In this document: positions 1,286 to 16,572 of the stretch, one piece after another
Layout: every line of letters begins with the position of its first letter
Numbering within the stretch: position 1 is the stretch's first letter
Origin: a virus
Lineage: Duplodnaviria > Heunggongvirae > Uroviricota > Caudoviricetes
Reading direction: 5' to 3' (one strand)
Virus record (IMG/VR): IMGVR_UViG_2657244940_000020
Length of the DNA stretch: 17,953 bases
The notes under the pieces: generated by a model
The model's input: the letters and a program-made list of their open reading frames with translations, nothing else
Told to the model about the DNA's origin: nothing
The model's database searches: none
Position numbers and translations under genes: made by a program

Positions 1286-1289
1286 TCTT

Positions 1290-1307: not shown

Positions 1308-1353
1308 AGTTGCAGCACTGCCGCCTTTCTTCCCCTGATGGCAACCTTTCCCT

Positions 1354-1932
1354 ATGAACGCACAATTAACCGAAATCATGCGCCTTATCACCAACCTGAT
1401 CCGCACTGGTGTAGTCACCGAAGTGGACCGGGAGAATTGGCTTTGCCGGGTGAAAACGGGCGAGCTTGAAACCAACTGGATCAGCTGGCTGACGCTGCGT
1501 GCCGGGAATGCCCGCACATGGTGGCGACCATCGGAAGGTGAGCAGGTGGTGCTGCTGAGTCTGGGCGGCAATCTGGAAACCGCGTTTGCCCTGCCTGCGG
1601 TCTACTCAAACCAGTTTCCGCCACCTTCAGATTCTGAGGACGGCAACGTGGTTGAGTACCCGGACGGTGGCTGGTTTGAATACGAACCCGCCACCGGGCG
1701 CTGGTATGTCAGGGGCATCAAATCAATGGTCATTGAGGCCGCTGACAACATCACCATGAAAACCAGTGAGTTTGTACTGGAGGCTGACCGCACGCGCATT
1801 AACAGCGAAGTGGTGATCAATGGTGGCGTTACCCAGGGCGGCGGAGCGATGAGTTCTAACGGGATCGTGGTTGATGCGCATCAGCATACTGGCGTCCTGA
1901 AAGGCGGCGACACAACCGGAGGCCCGGTATGA
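1354..1932 (+). CDS. V: Baseplate central spike protein (P2 gpV family), 192 aa
   Basis: ORF 1354..1932; N-terminal region and the C-terminal His-containing tip motif (VVDAHQHTG) are typical of gpV spikes; stop overlaps W start (ATGA at 1929-1932). Confidence 0.88.
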   Translation: MNAQLTEIMRLITNLIRTGVVTEVDRENWLCRVKTGELETNWISWLTLRAGNARTWWRPSEGEQVVLLSLGGNLETAFALPAVYSNQFPPPSDSEDGNVVEYPDGGWFEYEPATGRWYVRGIKSMVIEAADNITMKTSEFVLEADRTRINSEVVINGGVTQGGGAMSSNGIVVDAHQHTGVLKGGDTTGGPV

Positions 1933-2288
1933 CGCTTTATAGCGGGATGAACAATACCAGCGGTAAAGCCATTACTGATATTGACCATCTGCGCCAGTCG
2001 GTGCGGGACATTCTGCTGACGCCGCAGGGTAGCCGCATTGCTCGTCGGGAATATGGTTCCCTGCTGTCGGCACTGATAGATCAGCCACAAAATCCGGCGT
2101 TACGCCTGCAGGTTATGTCGGCTGTGTATGTGGCACTGAGTCGCTGGGAGCCACGGCTGACGCTGGATTCCATCACTATTAACAGCAATTTTGACGGTTC
2201 AATGGTGGTGGCGCTGAACGGGCGGCGTAATAACGGTGTGCCTGTTTCCCTTTCCGTATCAACAGGAGCAGAGAATGGCAGTGATTGA
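1929..2288 (+). CDS. W: Baseplate wedge protein (P2 gpW / GPW-gp25 family), 119 aa
   Basis: ORF 1929..2288, size and position between V and J as in P2; translationally coupled to V. Confidence 0.82.
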   Translation: MTLYSGMNNTSGKAITDIDHLRQSVRDILLTPQGSRIARREYGSLLSALIDQPQNPALRLQVMSAVYVALSRWEPRLTLDSITINSNFDGSMVVALNGRRNNGVPVSLSVSTGAENGSD

Positions 2289-3183
2289 CCTTTCGCAGTT
2301 GCCTGCGCCGCAGATTGTGGATGTGCCGGACTTTGAGACGCTGCTTGCCGAACGCAAGGCAGAATTTGTGGCGCTTCATCCGAAAGATGAGCAGGAAGCA
2401 GTGATCCGCACGCTGGAACTGGAATCTGAACCCGTCACCAAATTGCTGCAGGAGAACGCTTACCGTGAGTTGCTTCTGCGCCAGCGCATTAACGAAGCCG
2501 CGCAGGCTGTGATGGTGGCTTACGCGATGGGCAGCGATCTTGACCAGCTCGCTGCCAACTACAACGTGAAACGCCTGACGGTGACGCCTGCTGATAATGA
2601 CGCTGTGCCGCCCGTTGCAGCTGTGATGGAAAGCGATGAAGCGTTACGCCTGCGTGTGCCTGCAGCCTTTGAAGGGCTTTCAGTTGCGGGGCCAACTGCA
2701 GCTTATGAATTTCATGCCCGAAGCGCCGACGGTCGGGTGGCGGATGCCAGTGCAACCAGCCCGGCACCTGCAGAGGTGGTGCTGACTGTCCTTAGCCGCG
2801 AAGGCGATGGAACTGCAGAAAAAGACCTGCTGGACGTGGTGGAAAAAGCTCTGAACAGTGAGAACGTCCGCCCGGTGGCTGACCGTCTTACGGTTCGCAG
2901 CGCAGAAATCATCCCGTATCGCGTGGAAGCCACCATTTTTCTCTATCCGGGACCGGAAGCAGAGCCGGTAATGGCAGCGGCAAAAGCCAGCCTGCAGAAG
3001 TACATCGCCAGTCAGACACGTCTTGGTCGGGATATTCGCCGTAGCGCCATCTTTGCCGCCCTGCATGTTGAGGGTGTGCAGCGTGTGGAGCTGGCTTCTC
3101 CTCTGGCGGATGTGGTCCTGAACAAAACACAGGCGGCATCATGTACGCAGTGGAGCGTAACCAACGGAGGAACGGATGAATAG
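2275..3183 (+). CDS. J: Baseplate assembly protein J (P2 gpJ family), 302 aa
   Basis: ORF track gives 2236..3183, but ATG at 2275 is preceded by AGGAGCAGAG (RBS) and yields MAVIDLSQLPAP..., 302 aa, matching P2 gpJ length; overlaps end of W. Confidence 0.88.
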   Translation: MAVIDLSQLPAPQIVDVPDFETLLAERKAEFVALHPKDEQEAVIRTLELESEPVTKLLQENAYRELLLRQRINEAAQAVMVAYAMGSDLDQLAANYNVKRLTVTPADNDAVPPVAAVMESDEALRLRVPAAFEGLSVAGPTAAYEFHARSADGRVADASATSPAPAEVVLTVLSREGDGTAEKDLLDVVEKALNSENVRPVADRLTVRSAEIIPYRVEATIFLYPGPEAEPVMAAAKASLQKYIASQTRLGRDIRRSAIFAALHVEGVQRVELASPLADVVLNKTQAASCTQWSVTNGGTDE

Positions 3184-3781
3184 TCTGCTGCCACCGGGTT
3201 CAACACTACTGGAGCGCCGACTGGCGCAAACCTGCAGCGGGATTTCTGATCTGCAGGTGCCGCTGCGTGACTTGTGGAATCCGGCAACCTGTCCAGTCAG
3301 TTTCCTGCCTTATCTCGCCTGGGCGTTCTCTGTGGATCGCTGGGACGAGAGCTGGACAGAAAGCGTCAAGCGCCAGGTGGTGAAGGATGCTTTTTATATT
3401 CATCAGCATAAAGGGACCACCAGTGCCGTGCGGCGGGTGGTGGAGCCGTTCGGCTTTCTGATCCGCATTATTGAGTGGTGGCAGACCGGAGAGGCACCGG
3501 GCACGTTTCGTCTGGATATCGGTGTGCAGGACCAGGGCATCACTGAAGATACCTATCTGGAACTTGAGCGACTGATAAGCGATGCCAAACCATGTAGCCG
3601 TCACATGATCGGCATGTCCATCAACCTGCAGACCAGCGGCCCGCATTGGGTGGGAGCCGCCAGCTATCTTGGCGAAGAAATCACGATCTATCCGTATATC
3701 AACGAAACAATTATTTCCGGCGGCACCGCGCATGAAGGCGGGGCGGTCCATGTTATTGACACAATGAGAGTGAATCCATGA
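3176..3781 (+). CDS. I: Baseplate/tail protein I (P2 gpI family), 201 aa
   Basis: ORF 3176..3781, start overlaps J stop, stop overlaps H start (ATGA); position between J and the tail fibre gene. Confidence 0.82.
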   Translation: MNSLLPPGSTLLERRLAQTCSGISDLQVPLRDLWNPATCPVSFLPYLAWAFSVDRWDESWTESVKRQVVKDAFYIHQHKGTTSAVRRVVEPFGFLIRIIEWWQTGEAPGTFRLDIGVQDQGITEDTYLELERLISDAKPCSRHMIGMSINLQTSGPHWVGAASYLGEEITIYPYINETIISGGTAHEGGAVHVIDTMRVNP

Positions 3782-5319
3782 GCACAAAATTTTATACCCT
3801 GCTAACGGATATTGGCGCGGCGAAACTTGCCAGCGCCGCCGCGCTCGGTGTGCCTTTAAAAATTACCCATATGGCGGTCGGCGATGGTGGCGGAACATTG
3901 CCAACGCCGGACGCAAAGCAGACAGCATTAGTAAATGAGAAACGCCGGGCTGCGCTGAATATGCTCTATATCGACCCGCAGAACAGCAGCCAGATTATTG
4001 CTGAACAGGTGATCCCTGAAAACGAGGGCGGTTGGTGGATACGTGAAGTGGGCCTGTTTGATGAATCAGGGGCATTGATTGCCGTGGGAAACTGCCCGGA
4101 AAGCTATAAGCCGCAACTGGCTGAAGGTAGCGGGCGCACTCAGACCGTGCGCATGGTGCTGATTACCAGCAGCACGGACAATATCACCCTGAAAATCGAC
4201 CCTGCTGTAGTGCTGTCAACCCGCAAGTATGTGGATGACAAGGCACTGGAGCTGAAGGTGTACGCGGATGATCAGATGGCAAAACATCTTGCCGCACCGG
4301 ACCCGCATTCACAGTATGCACCCAAAGAAAGTCCGACGTTTACCGGGACACCCAAAGCGCCAACGCCAGCAGCAGGGAATAACACCACGCAGATTGCGAC
4401 CACCGCGTTTGTTCAGGCGGCTCTGACGGCTCTTATTAATGGTGCGCCAGCCACGCTGGACACGCTGAAAGAAATAGCCGCAGCCATTAACAATGATCCG
4501 AATTTCAGTACCACCATTAACAATGCGCTGGCACAAAAAGCGCCGCTGTCGAGTCCAGCACTCACCGGAACGCCAACAGCACCTACTGCGGCACAGTCGG
4601 TCAACAATACACAGATTGCCACTACAGCTTTTGTGAAATCAGCGATTGCAGCAATGGTGGGTTCTGCACCCGCGGCACTGGATACACTGAACGAACTGGC
4701 GGCGGCACTGGGGAATGATCCGAACTTTGCCACGACAATGCTTAATGCGCTGGCAGGTAAACAACCGCTGGACAATACGCTTACCAATTTGAGTGGAAAG
4801 GATGTAGCTGGTCTTCTCGCATACCTTAGTTTGGGAGAAGGTTCAGCATTACCTGTTGGTGCGCCTGTTCCGTGGCCGTCAGCAACTCCACCAACTGGAT
4901 GGCTAAAATGCAATGGAGCAGCGTTTACCGCTTCTCAGTACCCCAAATTGGCTCAGGCCTATCCTGCACTCAGATTGCCTGATTTAAGAGGCGAATTTAT
5001 TCGTGGCTGGGATGACGGGCGCGGGGCTGATAGCGGGCGAGGTTTGCTTTCTGCTCAGGGTGCTATGTCATTCGATCACCGGCACTGGATTCCAACTTCA
5101 CCAAGTTCTGGCGGAGATGGTCCAATGACGGCTGTTTTTATAGATAACAATGCGTCAATGGCTTATTACCCGAACGGAACTAATGAATATAACCCAAACC
5201 CGTCAACTGGCACGGTATTGCAGACATATACCGCAAAGGCAACACTTGGTTCAAAAATGTTTGGTAGTGAAACGAGGCCGCGAAACGTTGCATTTAACTA
5301 CATTGTGAGGGCTGCATAA
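3778..5319 (+). CDS. H: Tail fibre protein (P2 gpH-like N-terminus; C-terminal ~160 aa lie inside the invertible segment), 513 aa
   Basis: ORF 3778..5319; N-terminus MSTKFYTLLTDIGAAKLA...MAVGDGGG...ESYKPQLAEGSG is the conserved gpH baseplate-attachment region; central tail-fibre repeat motif; C-terminus has a phage tail-collar-like motif (WLKCNGAAFTASQYPKLAQAY). Confidence 0.9.
   Translation: MSTKFYTLLTDIGAAKLASAAALGVPLKITHMAVGDGGGTLPTPDAKQTALVNEKRRAALNMLYIDPQNSSQIIAEQVIPENEGGWWIREVGLFDESGALIAVGNCPESYKPQLAEGSGRTQTVRMVLITSSTDNITLKIDPAVVLSTRKYVDDKALELKVYADDQMAKHLAAPDPHSQYAPKESPTFTGTPKAPTPAAGNNTTQIATTAFVQAALTALINGAPATLDTLKEIAAAINNDPNFSTTINNALAQKAPLSSPALTGTPTAPTAAQSVNNTQIATTAFVKSAIAAMVGSAPAALDTLNELAAALGNDPNFATTMLNALAGKQPLDNTLTNLSGKDVAGLLAYLSLGEGSALPVGAPVPWPSATPPTGWLKCNGAAFTASQYPKLAQAYPALRLPDLRGEFIRGWDDGRGADSGRGLLSAQGAMSFDHRHWIPTSPSSGGDGPMTAVFIDNNASMAYYPNGTNEYNPNPSTGTVLQTYTAKATLGSKMFGSETRPRNVAFNYIVRAA
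4330..4770 (+). repeat. Two tandem ~219-bp (73-codon) repeat units inside H (4330-4548 and 4552-4770)
   Basis: Protein units SPTFTGTPKAPT...NNTTQIATTAFV...APATLDTLKEIAAAINNDPNFSTTINNALAQKAPL and SPALTGTPTAPT...NNTQIATTAFV...APAALDTLNELAAALGNDPNFATTMLNALAGKQPL are separated by one codon; diverged at DNA level. Confidence 0.6.
4814..4839 (+). other. Left 26-bp DNA-invertase crossover site (hix/gix-like), inside the H coding sequence
   Basis: TTCTCGCATACC-TT-AGTTTGGGAGAA: two imperfect 12-bp inverted half-sites around central TT. It matches the reverse complement of the site at 6714-6739 at 20 of 26 positions, including an identical GTTTGGGAGAA arm. Confidence 0.7.
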
Positions 5320-5918
5320 TGGCACAGGCAAAATTAAACAACGAACTTATCGCCACAGAGGCAGGCGATATTACAGTATTTAACTATGATGACGAGACGC
5401 GAGAATACCTTTCTATATCTGTTGAATATCTGGCCGTGGGCGTAGGTATTCCAGCCAACTCATGCATTGACGCCCCCGGCGAGAGCAAAGAGGGTTTTGC
5501 TATTTGCCGGACAGCCGATTTTGCCGCCTGGGAATACGTCGCGGATCACCGTGGTGAAACGGTGTACAGCACTGAAACAGGCGAGCCGGAGATCGTTTCT
5601 TTGCCTGGTGAATACCCGGAAGGCACCACCACGCTGGCACCTGATACGCCTTACGATACGTGGAACGGTCGCGAGTGGGTGACAGATACGGAAGCGCAGA
5701 ACGCGGCGGACGTGGAAGCGGCGGAACAACAGAAAGCTGCGCTCCTGCTTGAGGCCCAGACAACGATCAGTCTCTGGCAGACAGAACTACAGTTAGGCAT
5801 TATCAGCGATGAAGATAAAGCTAGCCTGATCGCCTGGATGAGCTACATCAAAGCACTACAAGCCGTCGATATATCAACGGCTCCTGTTATTATCTGGCCT
5901 GTTCCTCCGGAGAGTTAG
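5319..5918 (+). CDS. G: Tail fibre assembly chaperone (P2 gpG / Tfa family), 199 aa
   Basis: ORF 5319..5918 directly after H (TAATG overlap); C-terminal ...STAPVIIWPVPPES motif of Tfa chaperones. Confidence 0.82.
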   Translation: MAQAKLNNELIATEAGDITVFNYDDETREYLSISVEYLAVGVGIPANSCIDAPGESKEGFAICRTADFAAWEYVADHRGETVYSTETGEPEIVSLPGEYPEGTTTLAPDTPYDTWNGREWVTDTEAQNAADVEAAEQQKAALLLEAQTTISLWQTELQLGIISDEDKASLIAWMSYIKALQAVDISTAPVIIWPVPPES

Positions 5919-6342
5919 GCCACTCGATATCTGGTGCGCTGGAGGTGTTTAAAACTTCCAGAGCATCCAGATAATCAAGCCACAAACCATACTGTTCAAG
6001 CTCATCGCCTTTCAGACGACCAATAGCGGCTTTACCGGGCCATTGCTTACTGTTCATGTATTCGTTGGCCTGGTGAATTAGTAGCTGTCTTTCTGATTCA
6101 GTAATTTCAATAAGTTCTTCATGCGTGGGTGGAGGAATATCTGCCCACGCAGGCAGCCCATCATCTCCGGCAATACGGATTTTTCCTTGTGGCGGTTCAT
6201 CCATAAACTCACTGATAATATTTTGATTTACTTCCTTAGCGTCTGATAAATCCCATCCCTCTGATTTATATTTATCAATCATATCCACAGGGAAAAAAGC
6301 ATTATGCCTTGCGCTATAAACATATTCGTTCATATAAATCAC
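5890..6342 (-). CDS. Alternative tail fibre assembly chaperone (G'), 150 aa
   Basis: Minus-strand ORF 5890..6342, C-terminus ...SSAPDIEWPNSPEEQAR parallels the G C-terminus; lies downstream of H'v on the minus strand; 3' end overlaps the 3' end of G by 29 nt. Confidence 0.78.
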   Translation of the reverse strand: MIYMNEYVYSARHNAFFPVDMIDKYKSEGWDLSDAKEVNQNIISEFMDEPPQGKIRIAGDDGLPAWADIPPPTHEELIEITESERQLLIHQANEYMNSKQWPGKAAIGRLKGDELEQYGLWLDYLDALEVLNTSSAPDIEWPNSPEEQAR

Positions 6343-6353
6343 CCTGAATAAAA

Positions 6354-6727
6354 TTACTCACCAACAGCCCACCAACTGTAATTCATCGATACCGTGTCGC
6401 TGGTTGATGACGTTCTGTAAGCAGAATTAAAGCCGGTTAACGTTGGGCCTTCTGCAGTCATCACGAACCCTCGCCCAGCGCCTAAAGGCGCACCTCCATC
6501 ACCAGAATGAGTAAGCATGGCGCAGTCCGCTTTTTTAGGGAAAGGGATAGGAAATGTAATCCTCATTGTTTGCGTCGATAATTTCGGCATAGCCTCACCT
6601 CGACCATATTGCAGAATTTTACCGTTTGGTAATTTCATCCATCCATCACCACTGGCAAAAGAAGCCATGTCCGGTATCTGATTTTCCCCTGTTCCCACCC
6701 CCCGTTTCGCTGCTTCTCCCAAACCAA
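6354..6727 (-). CDS. Alternative tail-fibre C-terminal cassette (H'v); has no start of its own and is expressed only after inversion fuses it to the H constant region
   Basis: Minus-strand open frame runs from the right crossover site to the stop at 6354 (...GLGEAAKRGVGTGENQIPDMASFASGDGWMKLPNGKILQYGRG...). It is in frame with the H constant part across the crossover dinucleotide. The ATG at 6767 in the ORF track lies outside the invertible segment and is probably not used. Confidence 0.72.
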
Positions 6728-6739
6728 CGTTTATGAAAA
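6714..6739 (+). other. Right 26-bp DNA-invertase crossover site (hix/gix-like)
   Basis: TTCTCCCAAACC-AA-CGTTTATGAAAA; resembles remembered hixL/gix/cix sites (TTnTCnnAAACC ... GGTTTnnGAnAA); inverted relative to the site at 4814-4839 with complementary central dinucleotide. Confidence 0.75.
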
Positions 6740-6794
6740 TGCAGAGATAACGGCTAACTGGCATCATCTCCGGTTTTTATTCAGGGGGATGATC

Positions 6795-7361
6795 ATGCTT
6801 ATTGGCTATGTACGCGTGTCAACAAATGACCAGAACACCGATTTGCAACGCAATGCACTGAACTGTGCGGGATGTGAGCGGATTTTTGAGGATAAAATCA
6901 GTGGCACCAAGTCCGACAGACCGGGGCTGAAAAAGCTGCTCAGGACACTATCGGCAGGAGACACGCTGGTTGTCTGGAAGCTGGACAGACTGGGGCGCAG
7001 TATGCGGCATCTTGTTACGCTGATAGAAGAGCTGCGCCAGCGTGGCGTGAATTTCCGAAGCCTGACTGACAGTATTGATACCAGCACCCCAATGGGCCGT
7101 TTCTTTTTTCATGTCATGGGTGCCCTGGCTGAAATGGAACGCGAACTGATAGTTGAACGTACCAGGGCGGGGCTGGCTGCAGCTCGTGCTAAAGGCAGAG
7201 TAGGTGGACGCCGTCCTAAGTTGACCAGCGAACAGTGGGCACAGATTGGGCGTTTACTCGAGGCCGGAGAATCAAGACAGCGTATTGCACTGATTTTTGA
7301 TGTAGGCGTTTCTACCATTTATCGAAAATTTCCGGCAAATAAGAACAATAAATCTCCCTGA
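6795..7361 (+). CDS. Serine-recombinase DNA invertase (Gin/Pin/Hin/Cin family), 188 aa
   Basis: MLIGYVRVSTNDQNTDLQRNAL...VVWKLDRLGRSMRHL...GRFFFHVMGALAEMERELI...GGRRPKLT closely matches remembered Gin/Pin N-terminal catalytic and C-terminal HTH regions. GGGGG at 6784-6788 sits 6 nt before ATG 6795; an in-frame ATG at 6789 is an alternative start. Confidence 0.9.
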   Translation: MLIGYVRVSTNDQNTDLQRNALNCAGCERIFEDKISGTKSDRPGLKKLLRTLSAGDTLVVWKLDRLGRSMRHLVTLIEELRQRGVNFRSLTDSIDTSTPMGRFFFHVMGALAEMERELIVERTRAGLAAARAKGRVGGRRPKLTSEQWAQIGRLLEAGESRQRIALIFDVGVSTIYRKFPANKNNKSP

Positions 7362-7409
7362 ATCAGCTTTATTTTGATTATCCCTGAAAGCAGACAAATA
7401 CCGTCATTT

Positions 7410-7427
7410 TGTGTGAATAACGGTACA
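7410..7427 (+). promoter_or_regulatory. Candidate Ogr/Delta-activated late promoter element (TGT-N12-ACA) upstream of FI
   Basis: TGTgtgaataacggtACA at 7410-7427 in the invertase-FI intergenic region, ~85 bp upstream of the FI ATG, which has a strong RBS (CAGGAGGT at 7488-7495). Confidence 0.55.
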
Positions 7428-7503
7428 ACTGCGCTTAGCTGTTTGTCAGGCACAATCACTTCAACATAGGGCGAAGCCTAATCCAATCAGGAGGTTCGCC
7501 ACT

Positions 7504-8676
7504 ATGGCTCAGGATTACCACCACGGGGTGCGCGTTGTTGAAGTCAACGAAGGCACCCGATCCATTACCACGGTGAGCACCGCCATCGTGGGTATGGTCT
7601 GCACGGGCGATGATGCCGATGCAAAAATGTTTCCTCTTAATAAACCCGTGCTGATCACTGATGTGCTGACTGCCAGCGGTAAAGCGGGTGAGTCAGGCAC
7701 GCTGGCTCGTTCGCTGGATGCCATCGCTGACCAGGCAAAACCCGTGACCGTTGTTGTGCGTGTGCCGCAGGGTGAAACGGAAGAAGAAACCACGACCAAT
7801 ATCATCGGAGCAGTGACCGCTGAAGGTAAAAAAACAGGCATGAAAGCCCTGTTATCTGCCCAGTCACAGCTCGGCGTTAAACCGCGCATTCTCGGCGTGC
7901 CAGGTCACGACACGAAGGCGGTAGCTACTGAGTTGCTGAGCGTGGCGCAAAGCCTGCGTGGATTTGCTTACCTGTCAGCGTATGGTTGCAAGACAGTGCA
8001 GGAAGCAATCACTTACCGTGAAAACTTCAGTCAGCGTGAAGGAATGCTGATCTGGCCCGACTTTACTGGCTGGGACACGGTGCTGAATGCCGAAGCAACG
8101 GCTTATGCCACCGCCCGTGCGCTTGGTCTGCGCGCCAAAATTGACGAGCAGACCGGATGGCACAAAAGCCTGTCCAACGTGGGCGTTAACGGTGTCACCG
8201 GAATTTCTGCTGATGTGTTCTGGGATCTGCAGGACCCGGCAACCGATGCGGGACTGCTGAACCAGAACGACGTCACCACCCTTATCCGCAAAGACGGTTT
8301 TCGCTTCTGGGGTTCCCGCTGCCTGAGTGATGACCCGCTCTTTGCCTTCGAAAACTACACCCGCACGGCGCAGGTGCTGACGGACACGATGGCAGAAGCG
8401 CACATGTGGGCGGTGGATAAACCGCTGAATCCGTCGCTGGCCCGCGACATTATCGAGGGTATCCGCGCCAAAATGCGCAGCCTGGTCAGTCAGGGCTATC
8501 TCATTGGTGGTGATTGCTGGCTGGATGAGTCGGTGAACGACAAAGACACGCTGAAAGCCGGAAAACTCACCATCGACTACGACTACACGCCAGTGCCGCC
8601 ACTTGAAAACCTGATGCTGCGTCAGCGCATCACCGATCAGTACCTGGTGAATTTCTCCAGCCAGGTCAGCGCGTAA
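7504..8676 (+). CDS. FI: Contractile tail sheath protein (P2 gpFI family), 390 aa
   Basis: ORF 7504..8676 with strong SD; size (P2 FI ~396 aa) and position before the tube gene. Confidence 0.9.
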
Positions 8677-8685
8677 GGGGACAAC

Positions 8686-9201
8686 ATGGCTTTACCACGC
8701 AAATTAAAACACCTGAACCTGTTTAATGACGGGAACAACTGGCAGGGGATCGTTGAGTCGCTGACGCTGCCGAAATTTACCCGCAAATATGAGAAGTATC
8801 GCGGCGGCGGAATGCCGGGTGCAGTGGATGTGGATCTGGGGCTGGATGACGGCGCACTGGATACGGAATTTTCCATTGGTGGTACTGAACTGCTGCTGTT
8901 TAAGCAGATGGGCAAAGCCACGGTAGATGGTATCCAGTTGCGCTTTACCGGCTCTATCCAGCGTGACGATACCGGGGAAGTGCAGGCCGTGGAGCTTGTG
9001 GTGCGTGGACGTCACAAAGAAGTGGATTCCGGCGAGTGGAAGACGGGCGAAAGCAACACCACCAAAGTGACCAGTACCAACAGCTACGCGAAGCTGACTA
9101 TAAATGGTGAGGTGCTCTATGAAGTGGACCTTATCAACATGGTGGAAATTGTGGACGGTGTGGACCTGATGGAAGCGCACCGCAACGCCCTCGGCCTCTG
9201 A
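8686..9201 (+). CDS. FII: Tail tube protein (P2 gpFII family), 171 aa
   Basis: ORF 8686..9201 directly after the sheath gene; size matches P2 FII (~172 aa). Confidence 0.88.
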   Translation: MALPRKLKHLNLFNDGNNWQGIVESLTLPKFTRKYEKYRGGGMPGAVDVDLGLDDGALDTEFSIGGTELLLFKQMGKATVDGIQLRFTGSIQRDDTGEVQAVELVVRGRHKEVDSGEWKTGESNTTKVTSTNSYAKLTINGEVLYEVDLINMVEIVDGVDLMEAHRNALGL

Positions 9202-9255
9202 TGTATCTGAACGGCGCGGGATACCGCGCCAGAACCCAATTTACAGGACAGCAAA

Positions 9256-9558
9256 ATGAGCGATAAGCAGACTGAAAAGACTATTCAACTGGATACCCCC
9301 ATCAAGCGCGGTAAAACAGAAATCACCGAAATTGTGCTGCGTAAACCGCAGTCCGGTGCGCTGCGCGGTACACGCCTGCAGGCCATTATGGATATGGATG
9401 TGAACGCGATGATGACCGTGATCCCCCGCATCTCCAGTCCGGCACTGACTGCACAGGAAATTGCAGAGATGGACCCGGCAGATCTCACTGCCATGTCGGT
9501 TGAGGTTGTCACTTTTTTGTTGAAGAAGTCGGTGCTTGCCGGTTTACCGACAGCCTGA
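9256..9558 (+). CDS. E: Tail assembly chaperone E (P2 gpE), 100 aa
   Basis: ORF 9256..9558 upstream of the tape measure gene; contains the T6G slippery site near its 3' end. Confidence 0.8.
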   Translation: MSDKQTEKTIQLDTPIKRGKTEITEIVLRKPQSGALRGTRLQAIMDMDVNAMMTVIPRISSPALTAQEIAEMDPADLTAMSVEVVTFLLKKSVLAGLPTA

Positions 9559-9692
9559 CGGTTGACGATCTGGTGGCTGATATCGCCACCATCTTTCACT
9601 GGCCGCCATCCGTTACTGACGTTATGCCGCTGACCGAAGTGCTGGAATGGCGGTATAAAGTGATTCAGAGAAGCGGGGCCAACGATGAGTGA
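9256..9692 (+). CDS. Tail assembly chaperone E+E' made by programmed -1 frameshift at TTTTTTG (9513-9519); predicted ~145 aa
   Basis: Slippery heptamer T TTT TTG at 9513-9519 in the E frame. The -1 frame is open from there (FFVEEVGACRFTDSLTVDDLVADIATIFHWPPSVTDVMPLTEVLEWRYKVIQRSGANDE*) to TGA 9690-9692, overlapping the T start codon. Same arrangement as P2 E/E+E'. Confidence 0.65.
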
Positions 9693-12600
9693 TAATAACC
9701 TGCGCCTGCAGGTCATTCTTAATGCGGTTGACAAACTCACCCGCCCATTCCGTGCTGCACAGGCCAGTTCGAAAGAGCTGGCTGGCGCAATTCAGAATAC
9801 CCGAAACAGCCTCAAAGAACTAAATAAGCAGGCTGGCAGAATTGATGAATTTCGCAAGACGCGCTCGCAACTAGCCATAACAGCCAACAACCTGAACGCA
9901 GCCCGCGAAGAGGCGGCAAAACTCGCCACACAATTTGCTGCCACTAACAGGCCAACCGCCGCGCAGGCAAAGTTATTCAGTCAGGCCAAAACACGAGTAC
10001 AGGAACTTCAGCAGACCTATAACGGCTTGTTGGGGGCGGTCCAGAGACAACGTCAGGCACTTAAAGAATCAGGGATTGATACCAGACAACTCAGTAGTGC
10101 CCAGCGAGAACTTAAGAAAAATGCCGAAGAAACTCGTCAGGCACTGGAGGGCCAGCAAAAAGCACTTAAACGTCTGGGTGAACAACAGGCACGGATGAAC
10201 GCTGCCAGAGAACAATACTCAAGACGGCTTGAAGTGCGCGATCGCATCGCAGGAGCCGGAGCCACCACCACGGCTGCAGGGCTGGCAATGGGCGCGCCAG
10301 TGATGGCGGCGGTAAAAAGCTATACCAGCATGGAAGATGCCATGAAAGGTGTGGCAAAGCAGGTCAATGGTCTGCGTGACGATAATGGCAACCGCACTGT
10401 GCGTTTTTACGAAATGCAGGATGCCATCAAAGCTGCCAGTGAACAGCTGCCAATGGAAAACGGTGCTGTGGACTTCGCCGCACTGGTTGAAGGTGGTGCG
10501 CGCATGAATGTGGCAAACCCTGACGACAGCTGGGAGGACCAGAAACGTGACCTGCTGGCCTTCGCCAGTACGGCAGCAAAGGCGGCAACAGCCTTTGAGC
10601 TGCCAGCGGATGAACTGTCAGAAAGTCTGGGGAAAATCGCCCAGCTCTACAAAATACCAACCCGCAATATTGAACAGCTCGGTGATGCGCTGAACTATCT
10701 GGATGATAACGCTATGTCGAAAGGGGCAGACATCATTGATGTCATGCAACGCCTGGGCGGTGTGGCTGATCGTCTGGATTATCGTAAAGCGGCGGCGCTG
10801 GGTTCCACCTTCCTGACACTGGGGGCTGCGCCGGAGGTCGCTGCCAGTGCTGCCAACGCGATGGTGCGTGAATTGTCCATTGCCACCATGCAAAGCAAGA
10901 GTTTCTTTGAAGGGATGAATCTGCTGAAACTCAATCCTGAAGTGATTGAAAAGCAGATGACGAAGGATGCGATGGGAACTATCCAGCGTGTGCTGGAGAA
11001 GGTGAACGCACTGCCGCAGGACAAGCGTCTGTCTGCCATGACCATGTTGTTTGGTAAAGAGTTTGGCGATGACGCGGCGAAACTGGCAAACAACCTGCCG
11101 GAACTACAGCGCCAGCTAAAACTGACAGCGGGCAATGATGCGCTCGGTTCCATGCAGAAAGAATCCGACATCAACAAGGACTCACTTTCTGCTCAGTGGT
11201 TGCTGGTTAAAACCGGAGCGCAGAATACCTTCAGCAGCCTGGGCGAAACGCTGCGCCAGCCGCTGATAGATATTCTGTACACGGTGAAAAGCATCACGGG
11301 GGCGTTGCGTCGCTGGGTGGAAGCTAACCCTGAACTGACGGGTACACTGATGAAAGTAGCCGCGGTTGTGGCTGCGGTTACTGTCGGCCTCGGCACCTTA
11401 GCGGTGGCGCTGGCTGCAGTGCTGGGGCCGCTGGCAGTGATCCGTCTGGGATTCTCTGTGCTGGGTATCAAAACGTTACCTTCCGTTACGGCAGCAGTAA
11501 CTCGAACCAGCAGCGCGTTGTCCTGGCTGGCTGGCGCACCACTGATACTGCTGCGACGCGGGCTTGCTTCATCGGGCAACGCTGCGGGTTTACTTACTGC
11601 ACCGTTGTCATCTTTGCGCCGCACGGCATCACTGACGGGAAATGTCTTGAAAACTGTAGCAGGTGCGCCAGTTGCACTTTTGCGGTCTGGATTATCCGGT
11701 TTACGTGCTGTTGCTGTGATGTTTATGAATCCTCTGGCGGTACTGCGCGGTGGACTGGCAGCCGCAGGCGCGGTGCTGCGAGTGCTTGCATCTGGTCCGC
11801 TGGCGATGCTGCGCGTTGCCCTGTATGCCATATCTGGTCTGTTAGGTGCTCTGCTTAGTCCGATAGGTCTTGTGGTTACTGCACTGGCGGGTGTGGCGCT
11901 GGTTGTCTGGAAATACTGGCAACCCATCACCGCATTTCTCGGTGGCGTGGTGGAAGGATTCAAAGCGGCGGCAGGTCCCATCAGTGCAGCGTTTGAACCA
12001 CTTAAGCCCGTGTTCCAGTGGATTGGCGACAAAGTGCAGGCGCTGTGGGGCTGGTTTACTGATCTGCTGACGCCTGTTAAGTCGACCTCTGCCGAACTGC
12101 AGAGCGCAGCGGCAATGGGGCGACGATTCGGGGAGGCACTGGCGGAAGGGCTGAATATGGTCATGCATCCGCTGGACTCCCTGAAATCCGGCGTTTCCTG
12201 GTTGCTGGATAAACTCGGCATTGTCAGTAAAGAGGCTGCAAAGGCGAAACTGCCGGAAAGTGTGACGCGTCAGCAACCTGCGACGGTGAATGCAGACGGT
12301 AAAGTGATGATGCCATCGGGTGGTTTTCCGTCATGGGGATATAGCTTTGCGGGGATGTATGACAGCGGCGGCTATATCCCGCGCGGGCAGTTTGGCATCG
12401 TCGGTGAAAACGGGCCGGAAATTGTCAACGGCCCGGCAAACGTGACCAGCCGGAGAAATACCGCTGCACTGGCTGCGGTTGTTGCCGGAATGATGGGCGT
12501 TGCTGCCGCGCCTACAGAGCTTCCACCGTTGCACCCTTTGGCACTTCCCGCGAAAGGCGGCGAAGCGATGGTGAGTCGTGCAGCCACTGTGCCGCCCATT

Positions 12601-12762
12601 CAACGGATTGAGGCACCGACGCAGATCATCATTCAGACGCAGCCAGGACAAAGTGCGCAGGATATTGCGCGGGAGGTGGCCCGCCAGCTTGATGAACGTG
12701 AACGCAGGCTGAAGGCAAAAGCCAGGAGTAACTACAGCGATCAGGGGGGATACGACGCATGA
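9685..12762 (+). CDS. T: Tail tape measure protein (P2 gpT family), 1025 aa
   Basis: ORF 9685..12762; long alpha-helical N-terminal region, hydrophobic segment with periodic L-R-x-G-L repeats, position after E/E'; start overlaps E' stop. Confidence 0.9.
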   Translation: MSDNNLRLQVILNAVDKLTRPFRAAQASSKELAGAIQNTRNSLKELNKQAGRIDEFRKTRSQLAITANNLNAAREEAAKLATQFAATNRPTAAQAKLFSQAKTRVQELQQTYNGLLGAVQRQRQALKESGIDTRQLSSAQRELKKNAEETRQALEGQQKALKRLGEQQARMNAAREQYSRRLEVRDRIAGAGATTTAAGLAMGAPVMAAVKSYTSMEDAMKGVAKQVNGLRDDNGNRTVRFYEMQDAIKAASEQLPMENGAVDFAALVEGGARMNVANPDDSWEDQKRDLLAFASTAAKAATAFELPADELSESLGKIAQLYKIPTRNIEQLGDALNYLDDNAMSKGADIIDVMQRLGGVADRLDYRKAAALGSTFLTLGAAPEVAASAANAMVRELSIATMQSKSFFEGMNLLKLNPEVIEKQMTKDAMGTIQRVLEKVNALPQDKRLSAMTMLFGKEFGDDAAKLANNLPELQRQLKLTAGNDALGSMQKESDINKDSLSAQWLLVKTGAQNTFSSLGETLRQPLIDILYTVKSITGALRRWVEANPELTGTLMKVAAVVAAVTVGLGTLAVALAAVLGPLAVIRLGFSVLGIKTLPSVTAAVTRTSSALSWLAGAPLILLRRGLASSGNAAGLLTAPLSSLRRTASLTGNVLKTVAGAPVALLRSGLSGLRAVAVMFMNPLAVLRGGLAAAGAVLRVLASGPLAMLRVALYAISGLLGALLSPIGLVVTALAGVALVVWKYWQPITAFLGGVVEGFKAAAGPISAAFEPLKPVFQWIGDKVQALWGWFTDLLTPVKSTSAELQSAAAMGRRFGEALAEGLNMVMHPLDSLKSGVSWLLDKLGIVSKEAAKAKLPESVTRQQPATVNADGKVMMPSGGFPSWGYSFAGMYDSGGYIPRGQFGIVGENGPEIVNGPANVTSRRNTAALAAVVAGMMGVAAAPTELPPLHPLALPAKGGEAMVSRAATVPPIQRIEAPTQIIIQTQPGQSAQDIAREVARQLDERERRLKAKARSNYSDQGGYDA

Positions 12763-13244
12763 TGATGGTGCTGGGATTGTACGTGTTTATGCTGCGCACC
12801 GTGCCGTATCAGGAGCTGCAGTATCAACGCAGCTGGCGACATGCGGCAAACAGCCGGGTAAACCGACGTCCGTCCACGCAGTTTCTGGGACCGGACAACG
12901 ACATGCTGACGCTTTCCGGTGTTCTTATGCCGGAGATAACAGGTGGCAGGATGTCGTTGCTGGCACTGGAGCAGATGGCAGAACAGGGGAAAGCATGGCC
13001 CCTGATTGAAGGCAGCGGCACGATTTATGGCATGTATGTGATTGAGGGACTGAATCAGACTAAAACGGAGTTTTTCCGCGATGGTATGCCGCGCCGGATT
13101 GAGTTTACCCTGTCGCTCAAACGGGTGGATGAATCCCTGTCCGATATGTTCGGTGATCTCAGTGCGCAGCTGAATAATCTGCAGGATACGGCAACGTCTG
13201 CCTTAAGCGATATCAGTAAAACGGTGGGAGGGCTGCTGTCGTGA
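12759..13244 (+). CDS. U: Tail protein U (P2 gpU family), 161 aa
   Basis: ORF 12759..13244, ATG overlaps T stop; size matches P2 gpU (~159 aa). Confidence 0.85.
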   Translation: MMMVLGLYVFMLRTVPYQELQYQRSWRHAANSRVNRRPSTQFLGPDNDMLTLSGVLMPEITGGRMSLLALEQMAEQGKAWPLIEGSGTIYGMYVIEGLNQTKTEFFRDGMPRRIEFTLSLKRVDESLSDMFGDLSAQLNNLQDTATSALSDISKTVGGLLS

Positions 13245-14365
13245 ATTTCAGCTCTGAACTGCTTAACAAAGGCAACAAAACTCCCGCATTCAGCATCAGT
13301 ATTGAGGGGAAGGATATCACCACTGTGCTGGATAACCGCCTGATGAGTCTGACGTTGACGGACAATCGGGGCTTTGAAGCAGACCAGCTTGATCTGGAGC
13401 TGGACGACGCCGACGGAAAAATCGTGCTGCCGCGCCGTGGGGCGGTCATCACGCTGGCGCTGGGCTGGAAGGGGCAGCCGCTTTTCCCGAAAGGGGCATT
13501 CACGGTGGACGAGATTGAACACACCGGCGCACCGGATCGCCTGACTATCCGGGCGCGAAGTGCTGATTTTAGGGAAACGCTGAATACCCGCCGTGAAAAA
13601 TCGTGGCACAAGACCACTGTCGGGGAAGTGGTGAAGGAAATAGCCGCGCGTCATAAGCTGAAGATGGCACTGGGTAAAGACCTGTCGGATAAGCCCGTGG
13701 AGCATATAGACCAGACTAATGAGAGTGACGGCAGTTTTCTGATGCGGCTGGCGCGCCAGTACGGTGCCATCGCGTCGGTGAAAAATGGCAATCTGTTATT
13801 CATCCGGCAGGGACAGGGCAAAAGCGCCAGCGGTAAACCACTGCCGGTGATCTCAATCACACGTAAGGACGGCGACAGTCACCGCTTTACCCTGGCAGAT
13901 CGCGGAGCCTACACGGGCGTAATTGCCAGCTGGTTGCATACCCGCGAACCCGCGAAGAAAGAAAGCACCACGGTGAAGCGTAAGCGCAGGACTAAGAAGC
14001 AGAAGAAAGAGCCGGAAGCGAAGCAGGGCGATTACCTGGTGGGTACAGATGAAAACGTGCTGGTACTTAATCGCACCTATGCCAACCGGAGCAACGCCGA
14101 ACGGGCGGCGAAAATGCAGTGGGAACGCCTGCAACGCGGCGTTGCGTCATTCTCGCTACAACTGGCAGAAGGTCGGGCAGATCTCTACACGGAAATGCCA
14201 GTGAAAGTCAGTGGCTTTAAACAGCCGATAGATGATGCGGAATGGACCATTACGACTCTGACGCATACTGTCAGCCCGGATAACGGTTTTACGACCAGTT
14301 TGGAGCTTGAAGTGAAGATTGATGATTTCGAAATGGAAGGATTCTTCGCAATGGAGAACTTTTAA
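13241..14365 (+). CDS. D: Tail protein D (P2 gpD / late control D family), 374 aa, GTG start overlapping U stop
   Basis: ORF 13241..14365 (MNFSSELLNKGNKTPAFSISIEGKDITTVLDNR...), size close to P2 gpD (387 aa), last gene before ogr as in P2. Confidence 0.87.
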   Translation: MNFSSELLNKGNKTPAFSISIEGKDITTVLDNRLMSLTLTDNRGFEADQLDLELDDADGKIVLPRRGAVITLALGWKGQPLFPKGAFTVDEIEHTGAPDRLTIRARSADFRETLNTRREKSWHKTTVGEVVKEIAARHKLKMALGKDLSDKPVEHIDQTNESDGSFLMRLARQYGAIASVKNGNLLFIRQGQGKSASGKPLPVISITRKDGDSHRFTLADRGAYTGVIASWLHTREPAKKESTTVKRKRRTKKQKKEPEAKQGDYLVGTDENVLVLNRTYANRSNAERAAKMQWERLQRGVASFSLQLAEGRADLYTEMPVKVSGFKQPIDDAEWTITTLTHTVSPDNGFTTSLELEVKIDDFEMEGFFAMENF

Positions 14366-14431
14366 GTTTTCAAAATGGAATAATGCGGTATCATTATTGT
14401 GAATTTAGCAAAAATGGGGAGAACTCGAAAA

Positions 14432-14650
14432 ATGATGATTTGCCCACTGTGTGGAAGTGCCGCCCATACTCGCAGCAGTTTTCAGGTATCTTCATTGACC
14501 AAAGAGCGTTACAACCAGTGCCAGAACATTAACTGCAGCCATACTTTTGTTACCCATGAAACTTTTGTTCGTTCGATTGCAACGCCAAAAGAGTCAAATC
14601 CGGTTCAGCCGCATCCAATGAAATCAGAACAGGTGGCGCTCTCTCTTTGA
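14432..14650 (+). CDS. ogr: Ogr/Delta-family zinc-finger late transcription activator, 72 aa
   Basis: MMICPLCGSAAHTRSS...ERYNQCQNINCSHTF has the CxxC-N22-CxxxxC zinc-finger spacing and the size of P2 Ogr (72 aa). ORF track starts at 14399, but the ATG at 14432 gives the expected length and N-terminus. Confidence 0.85.
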   Translation: MMICPLCGSAAHTRSSFQVSSLTKERYNQCQNINCSHTFVTHETFVRSIATPKESNPVQPHPMKSEQVALSL

Positions 14651-14728
14651 CGCTGCCGCCATTTTGTCGCCATCGTTAAAAAACAGTGTTTCTAACATCA
14701 TGATTTTAAACAGCTTAAATTTCAGGCA

Positions 14729-14809
14729 ACAAAAAACCCATCAACCTTGAACCGAAATGGCGGGGTTGATGGGCTCCACAAAATGGGGACATCAAAGAAA
14801 AGCAGTGGC
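14729..14809 (-). ncRNA. rybB: RybB small regulatory RNA (sigma-E dependent, Hfq-binding), ~81 nt including intrinsic terminator
   Basis: Reverse complement of 14729-14809 reads GCCACTGCTTTTCTTTGATGTCCCCATTTTGTGGAGCCCATCAACCCCGCCATTTCGGTTCAAGGTTGATGGGTTTTTTGTT, matching my memory of E. coli RybB. It ends in a 10-bp stem (14737-14746 / 14764-14773) followed by a U-run on the minus strand. Confidence 0.85.
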
Positions 14810-14845
14810 ACTAATTAAGACTGATGCCCTGCGGAAAAGTTCTGC
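14810..14845 (-). promoter_or_regulatory. rybB sigma-E promoter (-35 GAACTT, -10 GTCTTA)
   Basis: Minus-strand sequence upstream of the RybB 5' end: GAACTT (plus 14837-14842) and GTCTTA (plus 14816-14821) with ~15-16 nt spacing, fitting the sigma-E consensus GGAACTT-N16-TCnnA. Confidence 0.6.
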
Positions 14846-14886
14846 GGTTGTGCAAAAAAAATTTCATTTTCAGGGCAACTTCAGTT

Positions 14887-16572
14887 TTATCCTAATCCTG
14901 GCCATACCATGACGATGATTGTCCCTGCCAGCGTCAGCAGGACGTTGGCGATTGCATAGGTGCCCGCATAGCCCAGCGCCGGGATGTTACTGCGAGCTGT
15001 ATCACTGATGATCTCCATTGCCGGCGCGCAGGTGCGTGCGCCCATCATTGCGCCGAACAACAGTGCGCGGTTCATTCGCAATACATAAGCACCGAACAAG
15101 AAACAGATAACCACTGGCACAAGACTGACAATCAATCCGGCAATCAACATCTGACCGCCAATCGCGCCCAGGCCGTTATTAATACCGCTACCGGCGCTCA
15201 GACCAACGCCTGCCATAAACACCATTAAGCCGAACTCTTTCACCATGCTTAATGCACCCTGCGGAATGTAACCGAAGGTCGGGTGGTTAGCGCGCATAAA
15301 GCCCAGCATAATTCCGGCGAATAACAACCCGGCAGCGTTCCCCATGCCGAAACTGAATGTGCTGAACTGGAAGGTGATCATCCCGATCATCAGCCCAATA
15401 ACAAAGAAGGCGCAGAATGCCAGCAAGTCAGTGACCTGGCTGTGAATCGAGATAAAGCCGATGCGATCGGCGATGGTTTTTACGCGACGGGCATCGCCGC
15501 TGACTTGTAAAACGTCACCTTTGTTAAGCACGACGTTGTCATCTATCGGCATCTCAATCTGGCTACGAATGACGCGGTTAAGGAAGCAACCGTGATCGGT
15601 CAACTTCAGTTGTGCGAGACGTTTGCCCACGGCGTTATGGTTTTTAACGACCACTTCTTCAGTGACGATACGCATGTCGAGAAGGTCACGATCGAAAACT
15701 TCTTTGCCGTTACGGAAGCTGGGATCGAGTCGTGCGTGGGCGTCGGGATAGCCTACCAACGCTATTTCATCGCCCATTTGTAGCACAGCATCACCGTCTG
15801 GATTCGCCAGAATCCCGTTACGTCGAATACGTTCAATGTAGCAGCCAGTTTGTCGATAAATACCCAGTTCACGCAGATTTTTGCCGTCGGTCCAGGCCAC
15901 CAGCTCCGGGCCGACGCGGTAGGCGCGGATCACCGGTAAATAAACCTTACGGTTGGCATCAGTGTCCAGGCCACGTTCGCGGGCGATTTGCTGGGCGCTG
16001 GTCTGTAAGTCCTGATGCTGCAATTTCGGCAAGTAACGCGCACCAACAATCAAACTCACCAGACCGATTAAATAGGTTAAGGCATACCCGAGGCTCAGAT
16101 TATCCAGTGCCAGTGAGAGTTGCCTGCTTTCCATGCCGGAATGACGCAGTGTATCGCCAGCACCGACCAGAACCGGTGTCGACGTCATAGAGCCAGCTAA
16201 CATACCGGCCGTCAGGCCAATATCCCAGCCAAACAGCTTACCTAACCCTAAGGCGATCACCAGCGCACTGCCAACCATCACCAGTGCTAACATTAGGTAA
16301 TTTTTCCCATCGCGAAAAAAAATGGAAAAAAAGTTCGGTCCGGCTTCGACCCCGACGCAGAAAATAAACAGCATAAAGCCAAGATTAAGCGCGTCGGTGT
16401 TAATGCTGAAATGTTGTTGGCCTAATAACAGCGATACGACTAAAACGCCAATGGAATTACCCAGTTGGATCGAACCAAGTCGTAATTTCCCGAGACATAG
16501 CCCAAGCGCGAGGACCACAAATAATAACAGAATGTAATTCCCATTTAACAATTCGGCGACGTTTATATTCAC
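14887..16572 (-). CDS. ybjL: Putative transporter YbjL (AAE family, two RCK_C/TrkA-C domains), 561 aa
   Basis: ORF 14887..16572 ([25 protein letters not shown]...VWPGLG) matches remembered E. coli YbjL in full length. Confidence 0.92.

What the first reader, a model, noticed from the sequence alone, without database searches (positions are those of the whole stretch)
14651..14886. Prophage right end lies within ~80 bp of the RybB sRNA 3' end; ogr and rybB are convergent
ogr stops at 14650 and the RybB terminator is at 14729-14775 on the opposite strand, so the attachment junction must lie in 14651-14728 or overlap the rybB 3' end. Phages often integrate at the 3' ends of small RNA genes. No obvious terminator for ogr exists before rybB, and the RybB hairpin lacks a U-run on the plus strand, so ogr read-through would be antisense to RybB.
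Basis: partly seen in the sequence, partly recalled or inferred. Interest (0 to 1): 0.5.

Follow-up and report, generated by a model that had tools for sequence, protein, structure and literature searches.

The report
P2-like prophage inserted at rybB end
The right end of a 186/P2-type prophage joins the E. coli chromosome inside the last 14 bases of the small-RNA gene rybB and rebuilds the gene intact, which is an ordinary and already documented phage integration hotspot.

Summary
RybB (Rfam, 105 bits) lies at 14728-14806 (-), so the two genes converge 77 bp apart.

Comparing attL, attR, empty E. coli sites and a free-phage attP defines a 26-bp att core, TAAATTTCAGGCAACAAAAAACCCAT (14716-14741). 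It overlaps the last 14 nt of rybB. In four lysogens whose host allele differs from the phage in the 12 nt outside rybB, attL keeps the host bases and attR keeps the phage bases. Strand exchange therefore lies inside rybB (14728-14741). rybB is identical in occupied and empty sites.

The 65 bp between ogr and the core is the attP P arm. It carries two 186-type integrase arm-site repeats (14654-14675).

About 20% of complete E. coli genomes are occupied, including E. coli B REL606. Three papers and a GenBank att annotation already name rybB as a target of P2-like/Felsduovirus phages, so this is already known.

The read-through idea is untested. There is no canonical ogr terminator, unlike in relatives. 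A marginal hairpin plus AUUUUGU straddles the ogr stop codon (14632-14667).

The parts
14432..14650 (+). ogr, the late-gene activator (72 aa) and last gene of the prophage
   Evidence: Pfam PF04606, 6.4e-22. The RefSeq CDS in the 99.8%-identical genome NZ_CP015085.1 matches these coordinates. PHROG 603, transcriptional regulator.
14632..14667 (+). Bulged GC-rich hairpin (14632-14660) followed by AUUUUGU, straddling the ogr stop codon. It is a marginal candidate intrinsic terminator for ogr.
   Evidence: Found by my own scan. RNAfold gives -14.2 kcal/mol, z = -1.9, with 8 of 200 shuffles folding as well. Function is untested. The 3' half of the stem coincides with the first integrase arm-site repeat.
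14651..14715 (.). Phage-specific P arm of attP, the rightmost prophage DNA between the ogr stop and the core
   Evidence: Present in lysogens and in the free Klebsiella phage KP12 attP, absent from empty sites.
14654..14675 (+). Two adjacent 11-bp direct repeats, TGCCGCCATTT and TGTCGCCATCG, which are 186-type integrase arm-binding sites on the P arm
   Evidence: They match the published 186-type arm-site consensus tgccGCCActt (PMC3448106). A second pair, TGCCGCCACTT TGTCGCCACTT, lies on the other side of the core inside the int 3' end (L004 7863-7884). The pattern gives 3 matches in the window against 0.41 expected. Binding is inferred, not tested.
14716..14741 (.). attR copy of the 26-bp att core TAAATTTCAGGCAACAAAAAACCCAT
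   Evidence: The identical 26-mer is at attL (L004 7742-7767). It occurs once in the empty site of strain AVS0068. In the KP12 attP it lies between ogr and int with one mismatch. Across 5,400 genomes, empty-site matches begin at 14716 from the right and end at the core's last base from the left.
14728..14741 (.). The 14-bp segment AACAAAAAACCCAT in which strand exchange occurs; it is the last 14 nt of rybB
   Evidence: In lysogens DETEC-P80, SWYH.B349aT, 31B19CPO012 and REL606 the host-type 12-mer (TAAGTTTTAGAT or TAAATTTTAGAT) stays at attL and the phage-type 12-mer (TAAATTTCAGGC) sits at attR.
14728..14809 (-). rybB small-RNA gene. The Rfam match is 14728-14806. The published 5' end GCC adds 3 nt, which rests on my own knowledge.
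   Evidence: RF00110, 105.3 bits. The 82-nt sequence is identical in empty and occupied sites.
14728..14775 (-). RybB intrinsic terminator: 12-bp stem with a 17-nt loop (14735-14775), then UUUUUUGUU
   Evidence: Rfam structure line. Fold of -24.1 kcal/mol. My own scan.
14815..14842 (-). Sigma-E-type promoter-like sequence upstream of rybB (GAACTT, 16 nt, TCTTAA), entirely in host DNA
   Evidence: Read directly from the sequence. The assignment to sigma E rests on published knowledge of rybB and was not tested with a tool.
14887..16572 (-). ybjL (aspartate:alanine antiporter family), the host gene flanking rybB
   Evidence: Pfam Asp-Al_Ex and TrkA_C. RefSeq annotation.
1..14715 (+). Late-gene half of the P2/186-like prophage: baseplate, tail fibre with invertase, sheath, tube, tape measure, gpU, gpD and ogr
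   Evidence: RefSeq annotation of the near-identical genome. Pfam gpU and gpD. About 95-96% DNA identity to Peduoviridae phages.

Best explanation
Window 14651-14741 is attR, the right attachment junction of a 186-type member of the P2-like phages (Peduoviridae). The phage has integrated by tyrosine-integrase site-specific recombination into the 3' end of the sigma-E-dependent small-RNA gene rybB. Its attP lies between ogr and int. It carries a 26-bp copy of host sequence: the last 14 nt of rybB (part of the 3' half of the terminator stem plus the U-tail) and 12 nt downstream of the gene. Exchange takes place within the 14 nt inside rybB. Because attP and attB are identical there, rybB is rebuilt unchanged at attR. 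The displaced copy of its 3' end at attL pairs with a phage-encoded 5' half-stem and serves as the terminator of int. The 65 bp between ogr and the core is the P arm, with two 186-type integrase arm sites. A matching pair lies in the P' arm inside the int 3' end. Shown here: the coordinates, the core, the exchange interval, the intact rybB and the attP layout. Inferred: integrase binding to the arm repeats, the terminator function of the attL hairpin, and the excision pathway through the Cox/Apl-like protein.
For: RybB was identified at 105 bits. ogr, gpD and gpU were identified by Pfam. In NZ_CP015085.1 (99.8% identical) the prophage runs rcdA-int-CI-CII-...-D-ogr-ybjL. The alignment of attL, attR and empty sites gives the 26-bp core. 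A free phage, KP12, has ogr-core-hairpin-int as attP, and its match to the window stops exactly at 14741. Empty-site matches begin at 14716 or 14728 and end at the last core base across about 5,400 genomes, and 1115 of 5426 genomes are occupied. Polymorphism mapping in four lysogens places the exchange in 14728-14741. rybB is identical in empty and occupied sites. The integrase carries PF24624 and PF00589, and a Cox-like excisionase matches PHROG 575. The arm repeats match the published 186-type consensus. The attL hairpin CCCGUUUACAUAAAUGGG followed by U6 folds at -9.2 kcal/mol. The literature names rybB as a target of P2-like/Felsduovirus phages: PMC3032704, PMC10121019, PMC4048246. GenBank KY271398 annotates a 19-bp attR at this position.
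Against: No evidence contradicts the integration model. Its limits are these. The exact cleavage positions within the 14 bp are not resolved. The integrase-binding and terminator roles are inferred from sequence and from a published consensus. The attL hairpin is not statistically unusual (z = -1.6). Whether the prophage in this window can still excise is unknown, because the window lacks its left half.
Confidence: 0.95

Rival explanations
1. The prophage sits in the rcdA-rybB intergenic spacer, and strand exchange occurs in the 12 bp downstream of rybB (14716-14727) without touching the gene.
For: In B2-type hosts the attP/attB identity extends 12 bp beyond the rybB 3' end. From such strains alone the exchange point cannot be placed.
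Against: In four lysogens with the K-12-type allele, all host-specific bases of the 12-mer remain at attL and all phage-specific bases are at attR. Exchange is therefore to the right of 14727. In Klebsiella the annotated repeat is only 19 bp and still includes the 14-mer.
Confidence: 0.03
2. The missing canonical terminator is functional. When the prophage is induced, ogr or late-operon transcripts read through attR, run antisense across rybB and ybjL, and lower RybB.
For: The consensus scan finds no canonical terminator between ogr and rybB. The plus-strand RybB hairpin has no U-run. Relatives RE-2010 and 500465-1 have textbook terminators directly after ogr, whereas this att/int module does not.
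Against: A hairpin of -14.2 kcal/mol followed by AUUUUGU straddles the stop codon. The space after ogr is occupied by integrase arm sites, which explains the layout without invoking regulation. By established P2/186 biology, which was not tested here, the late activator is silent in lysogens and excision uncouples ogr from rybB. Untranslated antisense RNA is also a usual Rho substrate.
Confidence: 0.07
3. The rybB copy next to ogr is phage-borne cargo, or a duplicate, rather than the chromosomal gene.
For: The last 14 nt of rybB are carried by the phage attP.
Against: Prophage-free genomes hold the identical full-length rybB at the same place between rcdA and ybjL. The KP12 attP carries only the 3' fragment followed by unrelated phage sequence. 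Rfam finds a single RybB in the window.
Confidence: 0.01

Closest known systems
Rybb* P2-like prophages of E. coli B (REL606, carrier of retron Ec86), W and Crooks (Archer et al. [quoted passage not shown] 2023, PMC10121019)
   Same: The insertion site, gene order and att sequences are the same. The REL606 prophage has rcdA-int-CI...ogr-ybjL, an Ogr protein with the same accession (WP_000972391.1) as in the near-identical genome, the same core and an identical rybB.
   Different: Only the cargo in the variable regions and the degree of decay differ. The REL606 copy is deleted in its late genes and has about 500 bp extra between the core and int. The window's copy matches a complete-looking ST131 prophage.
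Klebsiella pneumoniae island Kpn38RybB (PMC4048246) and Klebsiella phages 4LV2017, KP12 and the Kp48xx series
   Same: The integrase is 99% identical, the ogr-att region is 97-98% identical, and the core lies at the rybB 3' end. GenBank KY271398 annotates attR there.
   Different: The host genus differs. The annotated identity is 19 bp rather than 26 bp. The KP12 attP has one mismatch in the core.
Phage 186 (tRNA-Ile), Fels-2 and SopEPhi (ssrA), HP1 (tRNA-Leu): 186-type P2-like phages that integrate into the 3' part of structured RNA genes (PMC3448106)
   Same: All have a tyrosine integrase with 186-type arm sites (tgccGCCActt), attP between ogr/B and int, a core that duplicates the 3' end of the RNA gene so that the gene is restored, and a CI/CII/Apl-type switch.
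   Different: The target here is an Hfq-dependent sRNA terminator, not a tRNA-like fold. The integrase is at most 56% identical to any phage integrase outside its own group. RE-2010 has a canonical terminator after ogr, whereas this module does not.
Phage P2 integration at locI/locH
   Same: The virion and late-gene family is the same, ogr is the last gene next to attP, and the core is of similar size (about 27 bp in P2, from my own knowledge).
   Different: P2 Int is only 39% identical. P2 uses the tgTGGaCa type of arm site and mostly intergenic, non-RNA targets (PMC3448106).

Membership tests
RybB sRNA (Rfam RF00110) | Covariance-model score above the curated gathering threshold over the full length | tested here: met
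   105.3 bits against a gathering score of 40, model positions 1-79 of 79.
RybB sRNA (Rfam RF00110) | Conserved enterobacterial context between rcdA (ybjK) and ybjL, present with or without a prophage | tested here: met
   The empty sites L002 and L003 hold the identical gene between rcdA and ybjL.
RybB sRNA (Rfam RF00110) | Sigma-E-dependent promoter | not tested
   GAACTT-N16-TCTTAA is readable at 14815-14842 on the minus strand. No tool or expression data were applied.
P2-like (Peduoviridae) prophage, 186-type regulatory module | P2-type late genes ending in gpU, gpD and ogr | tested here: met
   Pfam Phage_P2_GpU, Phage_GPD and Ogr_Delta. RefSeq annotation. 95-96% DNA identity to Peduoviridae records.
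P2-like (Peduoviridae) prophage, 186-type regulatory module | int, CI, Apl/Cox-like and CII switch genes at the left end | tested here: met
   Shown in the near-identical genome, not in the window itself: CI (PF07022 and PF16452), CII, Fil and a Cox-like excisionase (PHROG 575).
P2-like (Peduoviridae) prophage, 186-type regulatory module | 186-type integrase arm-site direct repeats (tgccGCCActt) on both sides of the core | tested here: met
   Window 14654-14675 and L004 7863-7884. The consensus comes from PMC3448106. Protein binding was not tested.
Site-specific integration at the 3' end of an RNA gene (tyrosine integrase) | Tyrosine recombinase encoded next to attL | tested here: met
   PF24624 and PF00589, PHROG 1.
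Site-specific integration at the 3' end of an RNA gene (tyrosine integrase) | Direct repeat at both prophage ends, a single copy in empty sites, and one copy in the free-phage attP | tested here: met
   Population-wide match boundaries support it.
Site-specific integration at the 3' end of an RNA gene (tyrosine integrase) | The core overlaps the gene's 3' end and the gene is regenerated intact | tested here: met
   The overlap is 14728-14741. rybB is identical in occupied and empty sites.
Site-specific integration at the 3' end of an RNA gene (tyrosine integrase) | Demonstrated excision and integration activity | not testable with these tools
   This needs induction with an attP/attB PCR assay, or an in vitro recombination assay.

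The most novel reading that the evidence does not exclude
This att/int module has replaced the canonical post-ogr terminator seen in relatives with integrase arm sites. Late or ogr transcription in a not-yet-excised or excision-defective prophage might then read antisense through rybB (and ybjL). That would transiently lower RybB and loosen the sigma-E/outer-membrane-protein feedback during phage development. Decayed copies that can no longer excise are common at this site, so such an effect could be widespread.
Probability: 0.06. Interest if true: 0.45.

Novelty: already known. Interest (0 to 1): 0.15.

Why it matters
The main value is for annotation. The prophage boundary in this window should be set at 14715/14716-14741. 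rybB should be annotated as intact. The 65 bp after ogr is a recombination arm, not spacer. The site is occupied in about one fifth of complete E. coli genomes and carries variable anti-phage cargo (the retron Ec86 in E. coli B is in a prophage at this site), so a precise att definition helps delimit these islands. It opens no new question. The only untested biological point is whether phage transcription ever interferes with RybB.

Tried and rejected
1. The consensus promoter/terminator scan found no terminators. It also missed the genuine RybB terminator because of that hairpin's 17-nt loop, so it was not decisive. I replaced it with my own hairpin-plus-U-run scan.

2. A genome-contig scan with the attL junction pattern returned only two species representatives, a Buttiauxella MAG and Escherichia sp. 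E1V33. With one genome per species it says little about host range. The Buttiauxella attL shows the same layout with diverged arm repeats.

3. I considered whether the phage-type 12-mer in empty B2, D and E sites is a scar of earlier excision. I rejected this, because exchange within the 14-mer would restore the host 12-mer. It is more simply a host allele that the phage copy matches.

4. I considered whether the 20-22-bp repeat after ogr is a relic of an int 3' end. I rejected this in favour of 186-type arm sites once the published consensus was found.

5. The secondary ptrR insertion was examined for finer mapping of the overlap region. It is a single decayed example and was not conclusive.

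6. Literature searches for 'rybB' with 'attB' gave nothing relevant. PMC3318445 and PMC3603311 do not name rybB as a phage target in their main text.

Full report
**Observation.**
The ORF that ends at 14650 is an Ogr/Delta zinc-finger protein (Pfam 6.4e-22). The RefSeq CDS in a 99.8%-identical ST131 genome corresponds to 14432-14650. Rfam finds one family in the whole window: RybB, 105.3 bits, full length, at 14728-14806 on the minus strand. Its terminator stem-loop is 14735-14775, followed by UUUUUUGUU. ogr and rybB therefore converge, with 77 bp between the ogr stop and the RybB 3' end. Upstream of ogr are gpD and gpU of a P2-type tail module. Downstream of rybB are the host genes ybjL, ybjM, grxA and ybjC.

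**Where the junction is.**
A search of 5,426 complete E. coli genomes with 14300-15100 found the whole stretch in 1115 genomes. In the others only the right part matched, starting at query base 417 or 429, which is window 14716 or 14728.

The left end of the same prophage in NZ_CP015085.1 lies between rcdA and a tyrosine integrase gene. A search with that junction gave the mirror picture: in prophage-free genomes the match ends at the base that corresponds to the last base of the repeat.

I aligned attL, attR and two empty sites. A 26-bp direct repeat, TAAATTTCAGGCAACAAAAAACCCAT, is present at both prophage ends (window 14716-14741 and L004 7742-7767) and once in the empty site of strain AVS0068.

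A free Klebsiella phage from sewage, KP12, has the same sequence with one mismatch between ogr and int. Its similarity to the window stops exactly at 14741. This gives attP, attB, attL and attR. The core overlaps the last 14 nt of rybB (14728-14741) and extends 12 nt beyond the gene, to 5 nt after the rcdA stop codon.

**Where exchange happens.**
K-12-type hosts carry TAAGTTTTAGAT (or TAAATTTTAGAT) instead of TAAATTTCAGGC in the 12 nt outside rybB. I examined four lysogens with such a background: DETEC-P80, SWYH.B349aT, 31B19CPO012 and E. coli B REL606. In each, attL keeps the host 12-mer and attR carries the phage 12-mer. A fifth genome, for which only attL was read, agrees. Strand exchange is therefore to the right of 14727, inside AACAAAAAACCCAT, the rybB 3' end. 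The 82-nt rybB sequence is identical in occupied and empty sites, so integration regenerates the gene.

**What the rest of 14651-14715 is.**
This stretch is not spacer.
- Immediately after the ogr stop are two adjacent 11-bp direct repeats, TGCCGCCATTT and TGTCGCCATCG (14654-14675).
- A second pair, TGCCGCCACTT TGTCGCCACTT, lies on the other side of the core inside the 3' end of int.
- Next to the core on the int side there is also a tandem 19-bp repeat. It recurs in diverged form in a Buttiauxella relative.
- The integrase has the N-terminal and catalytic domains of phage tyrosine recombinases. A Cox/Apl-like excisionase, CI, CII and Fil are present at the left end. The element is therefore a 186-type member of the Peduoviridae.
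- On the minus strand of attL, phage sequence pairs with the displaced rybB 3' fragment to give CCCGUUUACAUAAAUGGG followed by U6 directly downstream of int. The phage copy of the rybB end probably doubles as the int terminator. This is an inference.

**The terminator and read-through claim.**
The consensus scan found no terminator in 14300-15000. The plus-strand version of the RybB hairpin has no U-run. Relatives with other att/int modules have textbook terminators directly after ogr: RE-2010 has AACCCGC...GCGGGUUUUUUGUU and 500465-1 has AACCUGC...GCAGGUUUUUAUU. This phage lacks an equivalent.

My own scan does find a bulged GC-rich hairpin at 14632-14660 (-14.2 kcal/mol, z = -1.9) followed by AUUUUGU across the stop codon. 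It is conserved in the Klebsiella relatives, though KP12 has a weaker U-run. Whether it terminates transcription cannot be decided from sequence.

Phages of the Kp4845-2 type share ogr only up to window 14636 and then diverge. The exchangeable att/int module therefore begins inside the last codons of ogr, and this hairpin belongs to it. Read-through antisense to RybB remains possible but untested. By established P2/186 biology, the late activator is off in lysogens and excision uncouples ogr from rybB.

**Comparison with what is known.**
- rybB is listed as the insertion site of P2-type prophages in E. coli B, W and Crooks, and the B copy carries retron Ec86 (PMC3032704).
- In Klebsiella pneumoniae a Fels-2-like island lies 'precisely within the gene for ... 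RybB' (PMC4048246).
- GenBank record KY271398 annotates a 19-bp attR at this position.
- I checked REL606 directly. It has the same gene order, the same att sequences and an Ogr protein with the same accession.
- The integrase is 99-100% identical in Escherichia phage vB_EcoM-813R9 and several Klebsiella phages. It is at most 56% identical to any phage integrase outside its own group, and 39% identical to P2 Int.

**Verdict.**
It is a textbook case of a tyrosine-integrase phage targeting the 3' end of a structured RNA gene, at a site already recorded in the literature. What this analysis adds is precision:
- the 26-bp core at 14716-14741;
- the 14-bp exchange interval inside rybB;
- the identification of the post-ogr sequence as integrase arm sites;
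- an occupancy of about 20% among complete E. coli genomes.

Interest is low.

Noticed in passing
L005 3417-3460, L014 15060-15110 (NZ_OZ546943.1); intact site L015 185-215: The same kind of prophage, here decayed, with IS3 replacing its early region and int truncated, is inserted at a secondary site that splits the LysR-type regulator gene ptrR (yneJ) next to sad/glsB. The intact site reads ...TGTTACTGCCGTTAACCTGACTGG. It resembles the primary attB only around CC-T-AACCT, at the right edge of the core and the adjoining rybB stem bases.
   Followed up: partly
window 14716-14727; L002 2989-3000; L003 3001-3012: The 12 nt just downstream of rybB are polymorphic among E. coli: TAAGTTTTAGAT in K-12-type strains, TAAATTTTAGAT in one strain, and TAAATTTCAGGC in ST131, O157 and APEC-type strains. 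Only the last allele matches the phage attP over the full 26 bp. Both kinds of host are lysogenised. Whether occupancy differs by allele was not counted.
   Followed up: partly
window 14636 (inside the last codons of ogr); L016 605: Klebsiella phages of the Kp4845-2 type share ogr at about 97% identity up to window 14636, then diverge completely and carry a different integrase (54% identical). The swappable att/int cassette therefore begins within the ogr C-terminal codons.
   Followed up: partly
L018 (Salmonella phage RE-2010), about 630-660: The canonical terminator after ogr in RE-2010 ends in GGGTTTTTTGTTGCC. This is the same 15 nt as the RybB tail plus the next bases of the core here, but on the opposite strand relative to ogr. 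It may be coincidence or a trace of shared ancestry of the att regions. It remains unexplained.
   Followed up: no
L019 25543-26132 (REL606); L006 15847-16290; CFT073 (hit H35): Some rybB prophages have an extra 350-500 bp with a small hypothetical ORF between the core-proximal repeats and int. This moves the P' arm sites inside int away from the core and might impair excision.
   Followed up: no
window 5319-7361: The prophage has an invertible tail-fibre segment. Opposed tail-fibre-assembly genes (5319-5918 on the plus strand; 5890-6342 and 6354-6767 on the minus strand) lie next to a serine recombinase or invertase (6789-7361), according to the RefSeq annotation of the near-identical genome.
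   Followed up: no
L013 (NZ_CM135810.1) 12093-16100: In strain WGI31CT the rybB prophage terminase gene is fused to a tail-fibre gene of another prophage, and the flanking host genes are from the ompN/uspF region. This indicates a large chromosomal rearrangement between prophages.
   Followed up: no
L004 16413-20264; L019 34893-36941; L011 25102-29696; L012 26830-30020: The region between the DinI/Tum-like gene and the portal gene holds different cargo in each lysogen: a P-loop/KAP NTPase, retron St85/Ec86, an HsdR-like protein, and Abi plus ASCH proteins. This fits the published P2 defence hotspot. It lies outside the window.
   Followed up: no
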